DNA of 64,000 nt from a virus. The notes below the pieces were generated by a model. That model had not been told where the DNA came from. It worked only from the letters and a program-made list of their open reading frames with translations, and searched no databases. This document shows positions 6,044 to 64,000 of this stretch, in pieces; position 1 is the first letter of the stretch; every line of letters starts with the position of its first letter. Both the position numbers and the translations under genes were made by a program. The stretch is taken from positions 1 through 64,000 of IMG/VR virus record IMGVR_UViG_3300005573_000857, one strand, 5' to 3'.

Positions 6044-6628
6044 GTGAGACTTGGCTCCGACATAGATGGAACGTTCGTTGATTTGAGAGAAGCTATGAAC
6101 TACTACTTAAGTCAGTACGGAGTGAGCATTGACTTCTCAACTTTGAGGACGTACTATATTGAGCGAGTTGTAAATCTTCCTAAAAGTATTGTAGAAGAGT
6201 GTGTAGATAAATCAGTGCAAGATTTAGACAGAATTTCCGCTTTCCCAGGAGCAGTTCACTTCTTTAGAAAGTACTTCGAAGAAACTGGTAGACCCATTAT
6301 CTTTATTACAAGTAGAGATATTAAGTCGAGGGAAAGCACATATAAAGTGATAGACAAATTTTTAGACGTTCCTTACGAAATTGTTTTTACTGCGTCTAAG
6401 GGGATAGCCGCAAGAGATCTCGAACTGGACTTATTTATTGAAGATGTTGCAGAAGTTGCTCTAGATGTTGCTACTTACGTTCCTCTAGTCTTGTTATTCG
6501 ATAGACCGTATAACTCTAAAGTGTTTTGCAGCAATATTCGTATTGTCCAGACTTGGCAGCAGGTTTCTGAAATTTTTGAGAGCGTGAAGGAGGTTTCTTA
6601 TGCAAGTAGTAATCTCTTGCCATCTTGA
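6044..6628 (+). CDS. HAD-family 5'(3')-deoxyribonucleotidase
   Basis: DIDGT, FITSR, K, FIED and DRPYN motifs. Confidence 0.85.
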   Translation: MRLGSDIDGTFVDLREAMNYYLSQYGVSIDFSTLRTYYIERVVNLPKSIVEECVDKSVQDLDRISAFPGAVHFFRKYFEETGRPIIFITSRDIKSRESTYKVIDKFLDVPYEIVFTASKGIAARDLELDLFIEDVAEVALDVATYVPLVLLFDRPYNSKVFCSNIRIVQTWQQVSEIFESVKEVSYASSNLLPS

Positions 6629-60884: not shown

Positions 60885-61111
60885 GACAGCTTACAAAAGA
60901 AGAAATAAAGAAGTTAGCAAGTGTTCCTGGAGTTAGGAGAATAGCAGTAGAGAACTTCTTGTTTACTCTGACGAATAATAGAACCCCAGGTGAAGCCCTC
61001 CGAAATCTAGAGTACGACGCAAAGTTGTACAAGTGGGATGCCAAAACTGTTGGCGTTATAAAGAAGGGTATTAGGATGGCGATGAGAGAGGACATAAATG
61101 CAACAACTTAA
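60881..61111 (+). CDS. Hypothetical protein
   Basis: ATGA overlap; SD. Confidence 0.6.
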   Translation: MRQLTKEEIKKLASVPGVRRIAVENFLFTLTNNRTPGEALRNLEYDAKLYKWDAKTVGVIKKGIRMAMREDINATT

Positions 61112-61511
61112 GGACGTCATATTGAAGACACCTTTTAAGAGAATCGAAAAAGACCTGTCTAAGTTCTTTAAAAAGGGCAGAAAAACTAAGTCTCTACGAG
61201 CTTACAGAATCCTGTACTCTAACCTAAAAAGGAAAAGAGCAAAACCGTCTGACGTAATCGTTTGCTTTAAGAAGAGGGGTAAAGAGTGTTGGGAAGTTTA
61301 TGGCAAAAGTGCCACAACTGGACAAGAGTTTGCTCTTGATTATAGTACTTTTTCTGACTGGTTAGGCTTTAACTTGCAAAGAGTTCCACTTTCTTTAGAG
61401 CAAGCTCTTTCTGCTATTCTATGGGAAATGACCTTCTACGGTTTGACTGATTCTAAGGTCTACAAGGAGCGTCGGACTTTGAGGCGCCTGCTAAAAGAAA
61501 GGAGACGTTAG
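61098..61511 (+). CDS. Basic hypothetical protein
   Basis: LWEMTFYG motif; operonic. Confidence 0.6.
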   Translation: MQQLKDVILKTPFKRIEKDLSKFFKKGRKTKSLRAYRILYSNLKRKRAKPSDVIVCFKKRGKECWEVYGKSATTGQEFALDYSTFSDWLGFNLQRVPLSLEQALSAILWEMTFYGLTDSKVYKERRTLRRLLKERRR

Positions 61512-61694
61512 GTGTTAAGTGAGTCCTGTATAAAAATAGAAGAGCCCAATTTGGAAGTTAAGATAGCGAATCTGAATATATTTCTTGTCGAAAAGAGAAC
61601 ACTACTAAATCGAGTGAAGTGGAAACTTTTTTCCAAGCTATTTCCAATTAAGTACCGCTGGATAAAAAAGGAGAAAAAGCATGGCGAACTTTAG
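61512..61694 (+). CDS. Small hypothetical protein
   Basis: Abuts both neighbours. Confidence 0.4.
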   Translation: MLSESCIKIEEPNLEVKIANLNIFLVEKRTLLNRVKWKLFSKLFPIKYRWIKKEKKHGEL

Positions 61695-62526
61695 TGAAAG
61701 AATGGCAGCTGCTGGTGTCGAAGAGTACAAAAGTGGCTGCTTTAAGTATGTAGATGACATTAGCGTTGTCTGCTATAAGAAAGTAACAACTTCAGATCAA
61801 GACAACATCCCATTCTACGCCGTTTTTACTGCTTGTAAACCGCACGAACCACTTCGTTTTGCTGGATTTGTTTCTGAGTACTACAACTTTATTGGTAATC
61901 GAGTTCTTATTAACAAGATAAAAGAGTCTGTACAAGAAACAGGAACTGTGGTTCTTAAAGAAGCTACAGCTTTTAACTCTCGAAAGACGAGCATGATACA
62001 CGAAATTGTAGTAAGTAGTGGTTCTGCACAGGAAGGAGACATTCTTCCAGAAATTGCAGTCCAGAATTCGTACGACGGAACTTGGCAAGCTAAAGTCTTG
62101 TTTGGTTTGTGTGTTGCTGGTACTAAGCTAGTTTTTAGAACGAAGCTTGGATCTTTCTCTCAAGTGCATTCTGTTGCTTCCAAAAGTCGCTTAACAGGAG
62201 CAATTGCCTCTTATTTCGTCACTTTTAAGGAAAACATTACTGAGTTAGTGTCTCTAAATTTTAAGAACAAACTAACCGAAGACGACGTTCTAAGAACTCT
62301 CGAGTTAGTCGAAAGGATCGGTAAGAAAAAGAGACAAGTAGTGTCAGAGTACCTCGCAGAAATGTCAGGACCAGTAACTGCGTGGAATATGTTTCTGGCG
62401 ATTACAAAGTTTTCTTCCACAGAGAAGAACATAAATACTAGAATTCTACTTGAGAATATAGCGGAAAGGGTTCTTGTTTTACCCCAGAAAATGCTTAACT
62501 TATGTGAGGAGGAAGAAACACAATGA
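61681..62526 (+). CDS. DUF932-like protein
   Basis: VSEYY..I.N, NSYDG...A...FGL, H, T.WNMF.AIT. Confidence 0.65.
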   Translation: MANFSERMAAAGVEEYKSGCFKYVDDISVVCYKKVTTSDQDNIPFYAVFTACKPHEPLRFAGFVSEYYNFIGNRVLINKIKESVQETGTVVLKEATAFNSRKTSMIHEIVVSSGSAQEGDILPEIAVQNSYDGTWQAKVLFGLCVAGTKLVFRTKLGSFSQVHSVASKSRLTGAIASYFVTFKENITELVSLNFKNKLTEDDVLRTLELVERIGKKKRQVVSEYLAEMSGPVTAWNMFLAITKFSSTEKNINTRILLENIAERVLVLPQKMLNLCEEEETQ

Positions 62527-62813
62527 CAATAAACGAGCTTTTGAGTCTGACGAAGATTATTAGAGAAAGAATTAACGACTTGCAGGAGCTGAAGAAGCAG
62601 GTTAGTATTAGAGAAAGATTCTACTCTCCAACTGAGAAAGTTGTTGAGCCAAGGTATGACGTTGTGGCAGTAGACAAAAAGATCCAAGAACTTCGCCTGT
62701 TCCTCTTTAGAGCAGATGCTCTCGTAAAAGCGGCAAACGCTAGAACTGAAATTTCTATCGACGTAAATATAGAAAAACTCCTAGAACCTTTGCCGGAAGC
62801 AGGAACTAGATAA
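62523..62813 (+). CDS. Small coiled-coil protein (DIP1984/DUF6847-like)
   Basis: MTINELL...I.ERI..L..L......E........P.YD...VD..I..L......D..VK.ANA.T. Confidence 0.5.
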   Translation: MTINELLSLTKIIRERINDLQELKKQVSIRERFYSPTEKVVEPRYDVVAVDKKIQELRLFLFRADALVKAANARTEISIDVNIEKLLEPLPEAGTR

Positions 62814-62819
62814 ACAGGT

Positions 62820-63019
62820 AAGCGAGCAAAAGAGATAGAAACGCAAGTTAGAAACTTCCTTGTCACTGGTATACACCAGAGTGGGTATTGTAAGTGGGCT
62901 TAAAACAATTTTACTATGTTGTTGATTTTAAAAGCCCACGACAGACCCACACTTTTAGTTGGTTGTTGTAACGGTTTGGAAACCACTAACTTGCTTTCTC
63001 TCTTTGCTCGCTTTTTTTT
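62820..63019 (+). ncRNA. Putative ~195-nt multi-branched structured RNA
   Basis: The 5' arm 62820-62851 pairs with the 3' arm 62986-63013; three internal stems; terminal U-tract. Confidence 0.65.
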
Positions 63020-63022
63020 CGC

Positions 63023-64000
63023 TTAGTAACAGGCTGACAAAGAGCTTTCTAATTTCTCGATTGCTTCGTCTACTTCTTGTTCTTTTAAAATAAGTGGCGG
63101 GCAAAACCTGATTGAAGATTGGCCGCAGGGGAGAGCTAATAAGCCGTTTCGGAAGCACTTTTCGATAATAAGACTTCTTTCCGCTCCAGCTGGCTCTTTT
63201 CGAGTGCGGTCTCTTACAATTTCAATTGCAACCATTAAACCTTTTCCTCTAACATCACCAATCACTTCAAACTTCTCAGCTAGTTGCTTTAGCTTTGCAA
63301 TTAGATAATTCCCAACTCTTTCGACGTTTTCGAGTAATTCTTGTACAACTTCTATTGTGGCAAGAGCAGCAGCACACGAAACTGGGTTACCACCGAACGT
63401 GCTACCGTGAGAACCAGCACTCCAGTCAGTTACTAGCGAGTCTTTTGCTACCATAGCTCCTAGTGGAAGACCAGACGCTATTCCTTTTGCTAGTGTGAAG
63501 ATATCTGGATCTACGTGGAAATGTTCACACGCAAACATTTTACCTGTTCTTCCAAACCCAGTTTGGACTTCGTCAGCTATAAATAAGATGTCATTCTCTT
63601 TGCATAAGTTGTAGAGCTTTGGCAGATAGTCGTCAGGAGGAACTACATATCCTCCTTCTCCAAGAATTGGCTCTATAAAAACGGCTGCTACTTCTTCTGC
63701 AGGAACTGCTTTTTCTAGTACTTCTCTAATGAAAGAAAGGCATTGCATACCGCAAGAGGGGTACTCTAACTTAAAGAAACATCTATAACAATAAGGATAA
63801 GGAACGAATACTGTTGGTAAGAGACTACCATAACCTTTTTTGTTCGAGCTTTTATTTGACGTAATAGATAGAGAACCGAATGTTCGACCATGAAAAGAAC
63901 CTATAAAAGAGATGAAGAAGTTCTTTCTTGTAGAAAAGCGGGCTAGCTTCATTGCTGCTTCGTTTGCTTCTGCGCCAGAATTACAAAGAAAAGCTTTTCT
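63023..64000 (-). CDS. Class III PLP aminotransferase (4-aminobutyrate/acetylornithine type), 5'-truncated
   Basis: Open to the window end (RKAFLCNSGAEANEAA); SFHGRT, IEPI.GEGG, DEVQTGFGRTG, AKG, HGSTFGGNP. Confidence 0.92.
   Translation of the reverse strand, partial: RKAFLCNSGAEANEAAMKLARFSTRKNFFISFIGSFHGRTFGSLSITSNKSSNKKGYGSLLPTVFVPYPYCYRCFFKLEYPSCGMQCLSFIREVLEKAVPAEEVAAVFIEPILGEGGYVVPPDDYLPKLYNLCKENDILFIADEVQTGFGRTGKMFACEHFHVDPDIFTLAKGIASGLPLGAMVAKDSLVTDWSAGSHGSTFGGNPVSCAAALATIEVVQELLENVERVGNYLIAKLKQLAEKFEVIGDVRGKGLMVAIEIVRDRTRKEPAGAERSLIIEKCFRNGLLALPCGQSSIRFCPPLILKEQEVDEAIEKLESSLSACY

What the first reader, a model, noticed from the sequence alone, without database searches (positions are those of the whole stretch)
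62523..63019. Large structured RNA directly downstream of a small coiled-coil gene
Seen: AAGCGAGCAAAAGAGATAGAAACGCAAGTTAG (62820-62851) pairs, with bulges, with CTAACTTGCTTTCTCTCTTTGCTCGCTT (62986-63013), followed by a U-tract. Enclosed are CTGGT/ACCAG, a long arm GTGGGT..TGT..GTGGGCTT-AAAA-CAA / TTG-TTTT-AAGCCCAC..ACA..ACCCAC (62881-62950) and GGTTT/AAACC. This is far more elaborate than a terminator needs. Inference: an ncRNA with paired 5'/3' ends that partners with the adjacent DIP1984/DUF6847-like protein as a ribonucleoprotein, or an RNA decoy/antitoxin.
Basis: partly seen in the sequence, partly recalled or inferred. Interest (0 to 1): 0.7.

Follow-up and report, generated by a model that had tools for sequence, protein, structure and literature searches.

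The report
Phage folded RNA with partner protein
Right behind a small helical-protein gene, this large uncultivated hot-spring/sediment phage encodes a real, evolutionarily conserved folded RNA of about 195 bases that matches no catalogued RNA family; gene and RNA travel together in many phages and probably form an undescribed protein-RNA particle whose job is unknown.

Summary
Window 62820-63013 folds into a long end-to-end stem enclosing a hairpin and a long central arm (-74.6 kcal/mol, z -6.35), followed by U8. It is not just a terminator. In 21 of 22 distinct metagenome loci that encode a homologue (41-58% identity) of the 96-aa protein, the 140-250 nt right after the stop codon adopt the same architecture. 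Neighbouring genes differ, and the next gene is usually co-directional. Cognate stem arms pair far better than arms swapped between loci. The + strand is the more stable in 22/22 loci and is rich in G-U pairs. A strain variant turns a G-C pair into G-U. Rfam 15 has no match (RAGATH-27, Y RNA and 6S included).

The protein belongs to a family of at least 386 clusters of about 91-100 aa. It scores just below threshold against the C-terminal half of DUF6847/DIP1984.

Best reading (about 0.5): a co-transcribed scaffold RNA displays UUGUUR units that several copies of the protein bind. In this phage its closing stem plus U8 also ends the 63-kb rightward gene block. Binding and function are untested.

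This scan has found the same kind of gene-plus-RNA pair on other DNA before. Earlier notes link that class to phage T5 and RAGATH-27; neither link was reproduced here.

The parts
62523..62813 (+). Gene for a 96-aa protein predicted as helix, beta-hairpin, helix (partner protein). Its ATG overlaps the stop of the upstream DUF932 gene (ATGA).
   Evidence: ORF. 24 metagenome homologue loci. Profile search: 270 clusters at 50% identity with E<=1e-3; 386 clusters at 90% identity. AF2 pLDDT 78: H3-25, E30-42, H47-70. Sub-threshold DUF6847/DIP1984 hits. ESM Atlas structural neighbour named 'DIP1984 family protein', TM 0.74.
62820..62851 (+). 5' strand of the long closing stem P1 (P1a 62820-62835, P1b 62838-62851). 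It starts 7 nt after the stop codon.
   Evidence: MFE helices. Cognate against swapped arm test across 21 loci.
62866..62879 (+). Small hairpin CUGGU-AUAC-ACCAG, an insertion specific to this copy.
   Evidence: Not present in most homologue loci.
62881..62950 (+). Central arm: P2 (62881-62891/62941-62950), P3 (62894-62901/62932-62939), P4 (62904-62909/62918-62923). The apical 3' strand carries the near-invariant UUGUUG (U/G tract 62915-62930).
   Evidence: The same arm is in all loci and its cognate halves pair best. UUGU is invariant in 20 aligned copies. Strain variant 62936 C>U keeps the P3 pair as G-U, and indels fall in the apical loop.
62951..62972 (+). Joining tract ACUUUUAGUUGGUUGUUGUAAC: the second U/G-rich (UUG/UUGUUR) tract, predicted mostly unpaired.
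   Evidence: An equivalent 20-35-nt tract lies between the arm and the P1 3' strand in nearly all loci.
62986..63013 (+). 3' strand of closing stem P1 (P1b 62986-62998, P1a 62999-63013).
   Evidence: (I9, I10).
63012..63019 (+). U8 tract directly after the closing stem: a terminator-type 3' end, 3 nt from the stop codon of the convergent aminotransferase gene (63023-64306, - strand).
   Evidence: Sequence. ORFs. Aminotran_3. Most homologue loci lack the U tract and carry UCCAC(A/G)U instead.

Best explanation
A two-part module: the 96-aa helical protein and a ~195-nt non-coding RNA transcribed with it on the + strand. The RNA is a scaffold. A long closing stem (P1) and a long central arm hold two U/G-rich tracts of UUG/UUGUUR units. 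One tract lies on the apical 3' strand of the arm; the other lies between the arm and the P1 3' strand. I infer that several copies of the protein, probably as coiled-coil oligomers, bind these repeated units. I also infer that the particle forms preferentially in cis, because the RNA begins a median of about 10 nt after the stop codon. What the particle does in infection is unknown. In this phage the closing stem plus U8 additionally ends the 63-kb rightward gene block where it meets the leftward block. Shown: the structure, its conservation and covariation, its strand, and its linkage to the gene. Inferred: co-transcription, protein binding, cis assembly, and terminator use.
For: Fold z -6.35. 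In 21 of 22 distinct homologue loci the 140-250 nt after the stop codon show the same architecture: outer stem, central arm, UUGUUG motifs. No other neighbour gene is conserved, and the next gene is mostly co-directional. The + strand fold is lower in 22/22 loci (mean -57.4 against -43.3 kcal/mol) with many more G-U pairs. Cognate P1 arms give -24.3 against -15.7 kcal/mol for swapped arms, and the cognate arm is the best of 21 in 13 loci. The central arm gives -21.6 against -14.0 and is best in 11 loci. On the 8-sequence model alignment, 89% of cells pair against 40-53% when slid, 34 of 48 pairs change on both sides, and 0 of 500 shuffles reach that. L010 and L012 are 95% identical, and their differences sit in P1 as compensatory changes. 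Strain variant 62936 C>U gives G-U in P3, and indels fall in loops. No frame stays open across the element, and there is no synonymous-site conservation at the gene's 3' end that would suggest an internal promoter. UURUU cores are spaced 3, 7 and 10 nt apart; identity within the tracts is 0.55 at lag 3, with secondary peaks at 6, 7 and 10. The protein family is large, uniform in size, and nearest to viral clusters.
Against: There is no direct evidence of binding or of a discrete transcript: no RNA sequencing run holds the stretch. The protein is near neutral (pI 4.9-8.2, median 6.4), which is unlike most RNA-binding proteins, and its fold search returns only generic helical hairpins. One homologue (L019) and a tandem paralogue (L023 2226-2501) lack an RNA of their own. 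The covariance model built from relatives does not reach the window's own copy, so its homology rests on position, architecture and shared motifs. The 7-nt register is weak here: 2-4 units per tract, with the 3-nt period dominant.
Confidence: 0.5

Rival explanations
1. A purely cis-acting 3' UTR element of the small gene's mRNA. It would serve as a stabiliser, processing site (for example an RNase III target) or terminator, perhaps bound by the protein for autoregulation, with no function as a free RNA.
For: It always lies directly 3' of the stop codon on the same strand. The window copy ends in U8 at a convergence point. The 13-30-bp closing stems would suit RNase III. No internal promoter signal was found.
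Against: It is far more elaborate and sequence-conserved (invariant UUGU, two U/G tracts, a conserved internal loop 5' of P3) than stabilisers or terminators need. Most copies lack a U tract and are followed by a co-directional gene. A subgroup keeps a 9-bp long-range leader pairing through compensatory changes.
Confidence: 0.2
2. A toxin-antitoxin-like or counter-defence pair. The RNA would neutralise the protein (type III TA logic), or act as a decoy or sponge for a host factor that recognises U-G-U/UUG-containing loops, such as anticodon-directed enzymes.
For: The self-contained two-part cassette moves between unrelated phage contexts. It carries repeated short single-stranded motifs. tRNA genes lie next to or near the module in L025 and L026. 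A Ro60-like gene lies nearby in L009.
Against: Type III antitoxins are tandem repeats upstream of an endoribonuclease toxin. Here the RNA is a single unit lying downstream, and the protein is a 91-aa helical hairpin with no nuclease-like fold. The Pfam, PHROGs and NCBIfam searches gave no above-threshold family for it; the PADLOC defence library was not searched.
Confidence: 0.15
3. A conformational switch (riboregulator). In the subgroup that has the GGUAACAG leader, leader:UUGUUACC pairing competes with P3/P4, so the RNA would toggle between two folds in response to the protein or a ligand.
For: The 9-bp leader pairing is 94% paired against 36-68% when slid, with 3 compensatory pairs, on an alignment not fitted to structure. 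It overlaps the 3' strands of P3 and P4.
Against: The leader is absent from the window copy and from about 13 of 21 loci. The same pairing could coexist with P1 as a pseudoknot rather than an alternative fold.
Confidence: 0.08
4. A DNA-level feature (MITE, recombination or packaging site, prophage boundary) or a chance palindrome.
For: Both strands of the window copy fold well (z -6.35 and -6.82).
Against: It is a single copy in the 92-kb record. Both flanks are phage genes (TerL and others). Across loci the + strand is always more stable and G-U rich, which DNA symmetry does not predict. The arms covary.
Confidence: 0.03

Closest known systems
Ro60 (Rsr) with bacterial and phage Y RNAs (Yrn1, YrlA)
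   Same: An RNA of about 100-200 nt whose 5' and 3' ends pair in a long stem, encoded next to its protein partner, also found in phages. One homologue locus (L009) even has a TROVE gene 1.1 kb upstream.
   Different: There is no TROVE protein in this 92-kb record. No Rfam Y-RNA family matches. The linked protein is a 91-96-aa helical hairpin, not a 500-aa ring.
TRAP with the trp leader, and HutP with the hut leader (Bacillus): oligomeric proteins reading spaced triplet repeats
   Same: Short repeated units (here UUG/UUR triplets, often arranged as UUGUUGN) sit in mostly single-stranded tracts, which suggests one protein subunit per unit.
   Different: Those RNAs are 5' leaders that control attenuation, and their proteins are beta-rich rings. 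Here the RNA is 3' of its gene, the tracts sit in a large scaffold, and the protein is helical. No TRAP or HutP family hit was found.
CsrB/RsmZ-type sponge RNAs binding CsrA
   Same: A structured scaffold presents multiple copies of a short motif to a small dimeric protein.
   Different: The motif is GGA in hairpin loops and the RNA is not encoded with the protein. There is no sequence or Rfam match.
DIP1984 family / Pfam DUF6847 (PF20935, NCBIfam NF038048): function unknown
   Same: The window protein and many relatives align to positions ~62-140 of the 141-position model. An ESM Atlas structural neighbour is a bacterial 170-aa 'DIP1984 family protein' cluster (TM 0.74 by query).
   Different: All scores are below the curated cut-off: 14.9 bits for the window protein, and 25.2 bits for the best of the ten relatives scanned, against 27. 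The phage protein is only half the length.
RAGATH-27 RNA motif (Rfam RF03100), named as closest by earlier notes of this scan for related modules
   Same: An orphan candidate RNA of unknown function, said there to be the 5' part of related RNAs.
   Different: It does not match this element or its relatives. The only hit in the record is a 14.5-bit chance match at 6074-6134.
Type III toxin-antitoxin systems (ToxIN-like)
   Same: A protein plus a structured RNA as a mobile two-part cassette in phage-related DNA.
   Different: Their antitoxin RNA is a tandem repeat array upstream of an endoribonuclease. Here a single non-repeated RNA lies downstream of a helical protein.

Membership tests
Pfam DUF6847 / NCBIfam DIP1984 family | Match to the family HMM at or above the curated cut-off (27 bits for Pfam, 70 bits for NCBIfam) | tested here: not met
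   The window protein scores 14.9 bits (PF20935) and 15.2 bits (NF038048). 3 of 5 and then 7 of 10 relatives give sub-threshold hits to positions ~62-140/141, the best being 25.2 bits, E 1.7e-5.
Pfam DUF6847 / NCBIfam DIP1984 family | Shared fold with family members | tested here: inconclusive
   ESM Atlas: TM 0.74 (by query) to a 170-aa 'DIP1984 family protein' cluster, and one feature neighbour cluster has 20% DUF6847. Foldseek and VIA searches of the PDB give only generic helical hairpins with Z<=7.2. PDB sequence profile searches found no family member.
Ro60-Y RNA | TROVE-domain protein encoded with the RNA | tested here: not met
   No PF05731 match at E<=1 in the 92-kb record, though the record is only about 29% complete. 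Only 1 of the homologue loci (L009) has a TROVE gene nearby.
Ro60-Y RNA | Match to an Rfam Y RNA / YrlA model | tested here: not met
   cmscan at E<=10 on the window region and at E<=1 on 17 loci found no such family.
Retron (msr-msd RNA with paired ends) | Adjacent reverse transcriptase | tested here: not met
   No RVT_1 match in the record. Neighbour genes are not conserved across loci.
Type III toxin-antitoxin | Tandem-repeat antitoxin RNA upstream of an endoribonuclease toxin | tested here: not met
   No tandem direct repeats were found in 62500-63100, only chance two-copy matches. The RNA lies downstream. The protein is a helix-hairpin-helix.
Intrinsic (rho-independent) terminator | Stable stem immediately followed by a U tract | tested here: met
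   In the window copy, the 11-bp perfect base of P1 (AAGCGAGCAAA/UUUGCUCGCUU) is followed by U8. This feature is absent from most homologous copies, which have UCCACRU and a co-directional next gene, so it is an add-on and not the family's identity. The simple scanner does not call it, because the 'loop' is 172 nt.
RAGATH-27 (RF03100) | Covariance-model match at or above the gathering score (76.1 bits) | tested here: not met
   No match on the element. The best hit in the record is 14.5 bits elsewhere. Nothing was found.
6S RNA | Match to Rfam 6S models; closing stem, central bubble, terminal stem | tested here: not met
   No Rfam hit. The gross topology (closing stem, asymmetric open region, terminal arm) resembles 6S only loosely.
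Scan-internal class: DUF6847-like gene plus end-paired 'heptad-repeat' RNA (earlier notes, unpublished) | RNA starts within a few nt of the gene's stop codon and is closed by a long 5'/3' stem | tested here: met
   P1 starts 7 nt after the stop codon in the window, and a median of about 10 nt after it in the loci.
Scan-internal class: DUF6847-like gene plus end-paired 'heptad-repeat' RNA (earlier notes, unpublished) | Row of evenly spaced 7-nt units | tested here: inconclusive
   UURUU cores are spaced 7 nt apart in 17 pairs and 10 nt in 16. The 3-nt period dominates (identity 0.55 at lag 3 against 0.46 at lags 6 and 7), and each tract holds only 2-4 units.

The most novel reading that the evidence does not exclude
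The module is one branch of a widespread, uncatalogued class of ribonucleoprotein. In this class a small coiled-coil protein (a DUF6847/DIP1984 relative) polymerises on short U/G-rich units displayed by an end-paired scaffold RNA. It would be a particle comparable in standing to Ro60-Y RNA, carried by many phages and acting on host or phage RNA metabolism. The UGU/UUG-rich units, the neighbouring tRNA genes and a neighbouring Ro60 gene in some loci hint at tRNA or RNA-quality-control targets.
Probability: 0.35. Interest if true: 0.85.

Novelty: categorically new. Interest (0 to 1): 0.7.

Why it matters
Structured non-coding RNAs with a dedicated protein partner are rare, and most that are known (SRP, RNase P, tmRNA-SmpB, Ro-Y RNA, CRISPR RNPs) do fundamental jobs. 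This is a compact, two-part, well-delimited cassette: a ~91-aa protein and a ~150-250-nt RNA. It is conserved across hundreds of protein clusters from uncultivated phages, matches no Rfam entry, and matches only a 'domain of unknown function'. Because it is small and self-contained, it can be tested directly by co-expression, pull-down, structure probing and cryo-EM. A function in infection, such as host takeover, RNA protection or counter-defence, would define a new class of RNP. If it proves to be only a cis-acting mRNA element, it would still be an unusually ornate one.

Tried and rejected
- Rfam 15 at permissive thresholds, on the window region and on 17 loci: no family matches the element.
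- tRNA/tmRNA scan: nothing in the window or the rest of the record.
- Second copy or MITE: none in the 92-kb record.
- Protein homologues were not found in several collections:
  - IMG/VR by back-translated patterns;
  - GTDB species genomes;
  - GenBank phages by tblastn with the window protein or with P0121;
  - blastn of the locus against phages.
The RNA sample is therefore limited to 24 JGI loci.
- A 17-mer RNA motif scan of IMG/VR gave 33 hits. All are chance: none has the RNA by model R2, and none has the protein.
- MAFFT-only alignments of the whole RNA or of the central arm are too poor for RNAalifold, which predicted 0 pairs. Covariance models R1 and R2 recover 13 loci but not the window copy, and they misalign the outer stem of copies with insertions.
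- Earlier notes' links to phage T5 and RAGATH-27 were not reproduced. T5 (AY543070) has no PF20935, A6-profile or RF03100 match.
- Foldseek (PDB, BFVD) and the VIA wide search gave only generic coiled-coil and helical-hairpin matches.
- No RNA holder is listed among public runs. Contigs of DNA runs gave only strain variants.
- Literature searches for DIP1984/DUF6847, RAGATH-27 and jumbo-phage ncRNA found nothing relevant.
- Ideas considered and dropped for lack of support:
  - a purine-pyrimidine triplex between the U/G tract and P1 (P1 is not polypurine in many loci);
  - P1 as an SD:anti-SD mimic;
  - a hidden small ORF (no frame stays open).

Full report
**Setting.** The window is the first 64 kb of a 91,893-base IMG/VR virus record that CheckV rates about 29% complete, so it is a fragment of a large phage. 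Essentially all genes from 1 to 62813 lie on the + strand. From 63023 to about 91,500 nearly all lie on the - strand. That leftward block includes a class-III aminotransferase (63023-64306), a large terminase subunit, a TnpB-like gene and a VanY-domain giant protein. The finding therefore sits at the single convergence point of two long phage gene blocks, not at a prophage-host border. DNA runs that hold the stretch come from hot-spring and sediment metagenomes.

**The observation.**
- a bipartite closing stem P1 (62820-62835/62999-63013 and 62838-62851/62986-62998);
- a small hairpin (62866-62879);
- a three-helix central arm (62881-62950);
- a mostly unpaired U/G-rich joining tract (62951-62972);
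- U8 (63012-63019).

The energy is -74.6 kcal/mol against -46.7 +/- 4.4 for shuffles (z -6.35). Only GGTTT/AAACC is untenable, because it leaves a 2-nt loop. The reverse strand of this copy folds almost as well (z -6.82), so the window alone cannot tell RNA from a DNA palindrome.

**Conservation.** The 96-aa protein has no Pfam or PHROG family above threshold. It does have homologues:
- 4 by word search;
- 24 loci in JGI metagenomes at 41-58% identity;
- 270 clusters at 50% identity in an exhaustive profile search;
- 386 clusters at 90% identity, nearly all 90-100 aa.

L012/L013 and L023/L024 are duplicates, which leaves 22 distinct loci. In 21 of them the 140-250 nt directly after the stop codon fold into the same architecture:
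- a 13-24-bp outer stem starting a median of about 10 nt after the stop codon;
- a long central arm whose apical 3' strand carries a near-invariant UUGUUG (UUGU is invariant in 20 aligned copies);
- a conserved UUGUUGA-like internal loop 5' of the GGGG/CCCC helix;
- a second U/G-rich tract of 20-35 nt before the 3' strand of the outer stem.

Most copies end in UCCAC(A/G)U, which is often paired with a 5' GU(A)GG, rather than in a U tract. The next gene is usually on the same strand. No other neighbour gene is conserved. The neighbours are typical phage genes such as terminase, tail, primase and exonuclease. The conserved unit is thus gene plus RNA, and the element is not simply a convergent terminator.

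**RNA or DNA, and which strand.** In 22 of 22 copies the + strand fold is the more stable (mean -57.4 against -43.3 kcal/mol), and it contains several times more G-U pairs. This fits selection on an RNA of the gene's strand and does not fit a DNA-level palindrome.

**Covariation.** Stem sequences differ almost completely between loci, so I used an alignment-free test. The first 40 nt of each element were duplexed with the last 40 nt of every element.
- Cognate pairs average -24.3 kcal/mol against -15.7 for swapped pairs. The cognate partner is the best of 21 in 13 loci; about one would be expected by chance.
- The failures are copies with long 5' leaders that push the P1 arm outside the 40-nt window.
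- The two halves of the central arm give -21.6 against -14.0, and the cognate half is best in 11 loci.

Covariance models built from L010+L012 and then from 8 sequences find the RNA in 13 loci, always on the + strand right behind the gene. On the 8-sequence alignment 89% of cells pair against 40-53% in slid controls, 34 of 48 pairs change on both sides, and no shuffle reaches this. That alignment is fitted to the model, and inspection shows the outer stem of L014 and L022 is misplaced, so I give more weight to the alignment-free test. Three other lines of evidence do not depend on model fitting:
- L010 and L012 are 95% identical, and their differences cluster in P1 as A-U to G-C and G-C to A-U exchanges.
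- L006, L009 and L017 share a 16-bp P1 with compensatory changes.
- Strain variants of this very phage carry 62936 C>U, which converts a G-C pair of P3 into G-U and would be a C-A mismatch on the other strand. They also carry a change in a bulge (62940) and indels in the apical loop.

The models do not reach the window copy. Its membership rests on position, architecture and shared motifs.

**A long-range pairing in a subgroup.** Eight loci carry a leader GGUAACAG 5' of P1 that pairs with UUGUUACC on the 3' strands of P4 and P3. On a plain MAFFT alignment this 9-bp helix is 94% paired against 36-68% when slid, with three compensatory pairs. It crosses P1 and overlaps P3, so it is either a pseudoknot or an alternative fold. 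The window copy lacks it.

**Repeat units.** Within the U/G-rich tracts the strongest periodicity is 3 nt (identity 0.55), with secondary peaks at 6, 7, 10 and 13. UURUU cores lie 3 nt apart in 21 pairs, 7 nt in 17 and 10 nt in 16. The unit is best described as a UUG/UUR triplet, often arranged as UUGUUGN, with 2-4 such heptads per tract. That is weaker than the long heptad rows that earlier notes of this scan report for related modules.

**The protein.** AlphaFold2 with the 22-sequence alignment gives helix 3-25, beta-hairpin 30-42 and helix 47-70 (pLDDT 78). Structure searches return only generic coiled coils. The window protein and many relatives hit the C-terminal half (positions ~62-140 of 141) of Pfam DUF6847 and NCBIfam DIP1984, always below the cut-off; the best is 25.2 bits against 27. 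ESM Atlas places it among viral clusters, one of them 20% DUF6847, and finds a bacterial 170-aa 'DIP1984 family protein' cluster at TM 0.74. It is therefore a probable half-size distant relative of that family and not a demonstrable member. The family is near neutral in charge.

**Other explanations tested.**
- Rfam has no match, including Y RNA, 6S and RAGATH-27.
- The record holds no TROVE protein and no reverse transcriptase.
- There are no tandem repeats, no second copy and no conserved open frame.
- There is no synonymous-site conservation at the end of the gene that would suggest an internal promoter, which favours co-transcription with the gene.

**Mechanism.** I commit, at about 0.5, to a ribonucleoprotein. 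The RNA is made as the 3' part of the gene's transcript. Its stems hold two tracts of UUGUUR units, and several copies of the helical protein bind them. Because the stop codon lies next to the base of P1, assembly would favour the RNA made in cis. In this phage, P1 plus U8 also terminates the rightward block; in L025 a tRNA gene abuts the RNA's 3' end, so RNase P could define that end there. The steps shown are structure, conservation, strand and linkage. Binding, stoichiometry, a free RNA species and biological role are inferred. Rivals are a purely cis-acting mRNA element (0.2), a toxin-antitoxin-like or decoy pair (0.15), a conformational switch (0.08) and a DNA-level feature (0.03).

**Relation to earlier notes of this scan.** The same kind of pair, a DIP1984/DUF6847-like gene followed by an end-paired RNA with short periodic units, has been reported on many other genomes. 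My results agree with the core of those notes: a real, conserved, uncatalogued RNA linked to the gene. Two specific claims were not reproduced for this subfamily. RAGATH-27 does not match it, and phage T5 (AY543070) shows no match to PF20935, to my protein profile or to RF03100.

**Verdict.** This is a genuine, conserved, uncatalogued structured RNA linked to a small protein of unknown function. It belongs to no known family by any test I could run. Interest is 0.7.

Noticed in passing
L009:378-1895 (+), 1.1 kb upstream of the module at L009:2983-3425: A 505-aa TROVE-domain (Ro60-like) protein (Pfam 7.4e-31; phrog_850 'RNA-binding protein') is encoded in the same phage gene cluster as the small protein and its RNA. 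The 243-nt gap after it (1896-2138) was not examined for a Y RNA, and Rfam found none at E<=1.
   Followed up: partly
L025:2047-2120 (+): A tRNA gene (59.7 bits) abuts the 3' end of the module's RNA (L025:1819-2047), so RNase P processing could set the RNA's 3' end there. L026 also has a tRNA gene 1.3 kb upstream of the module.
   Followed up: no
L023:2226-2501 (+) (same in L024): A tandem second paralogue of the small protein (77% identical to the first) is followed only by a remnant of the RNA's 5' arm (AGUAAGGAAACGGUAAAGG). The sequence after that looks like a small hydrophobic ORF. So there are two proteins and one RNA.
   Followed up: partly
L019:102-392 (+): This is the one homologue locus with no recognisable RNA after the stop codon. 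The downstream sequence looks coding.
   Followed up: no
window 61681-62526 (+): The DUF932-family gene (23.3 bits, just at the cut-off) has a stop that overlaps the small gene's start (ATGA at 62523-62526), which suggests translational coupling in this phage. This neighbour is not conserved in other loci.
   Followed up: partly
window 63023-64000 and on to 64306 (-): A phage-encoded class-III aminotransferase (Aminotran_3, E 2.8e-128 for the full 427 aa) ends 3 nt from the U8 tract. The element may serve as a shared, bidirectional transcription stop.
   Followed up: no
window 62913-62916 and 62888 (strain variants in run X3): Two co-existing variants of the apical region of the RNA differ by small insertions (TG after 62888, C after 62913, T after 62916). 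This is an indel hot spot in loops, while the stems are kept.
   Followed up: partly
L004:10830-11915 (-) = record 72830-73915: A TnpB-like gene (Cas12f1-like TNB domain, 4.9e-22) lies next to the large terminase gene in the leftward block.
   Followed up: no
window 61098-61511 (+): A DUF6557-family protein (58 bits) lies two genes upstream of the module. Its function is unknown.
   Followed up: no
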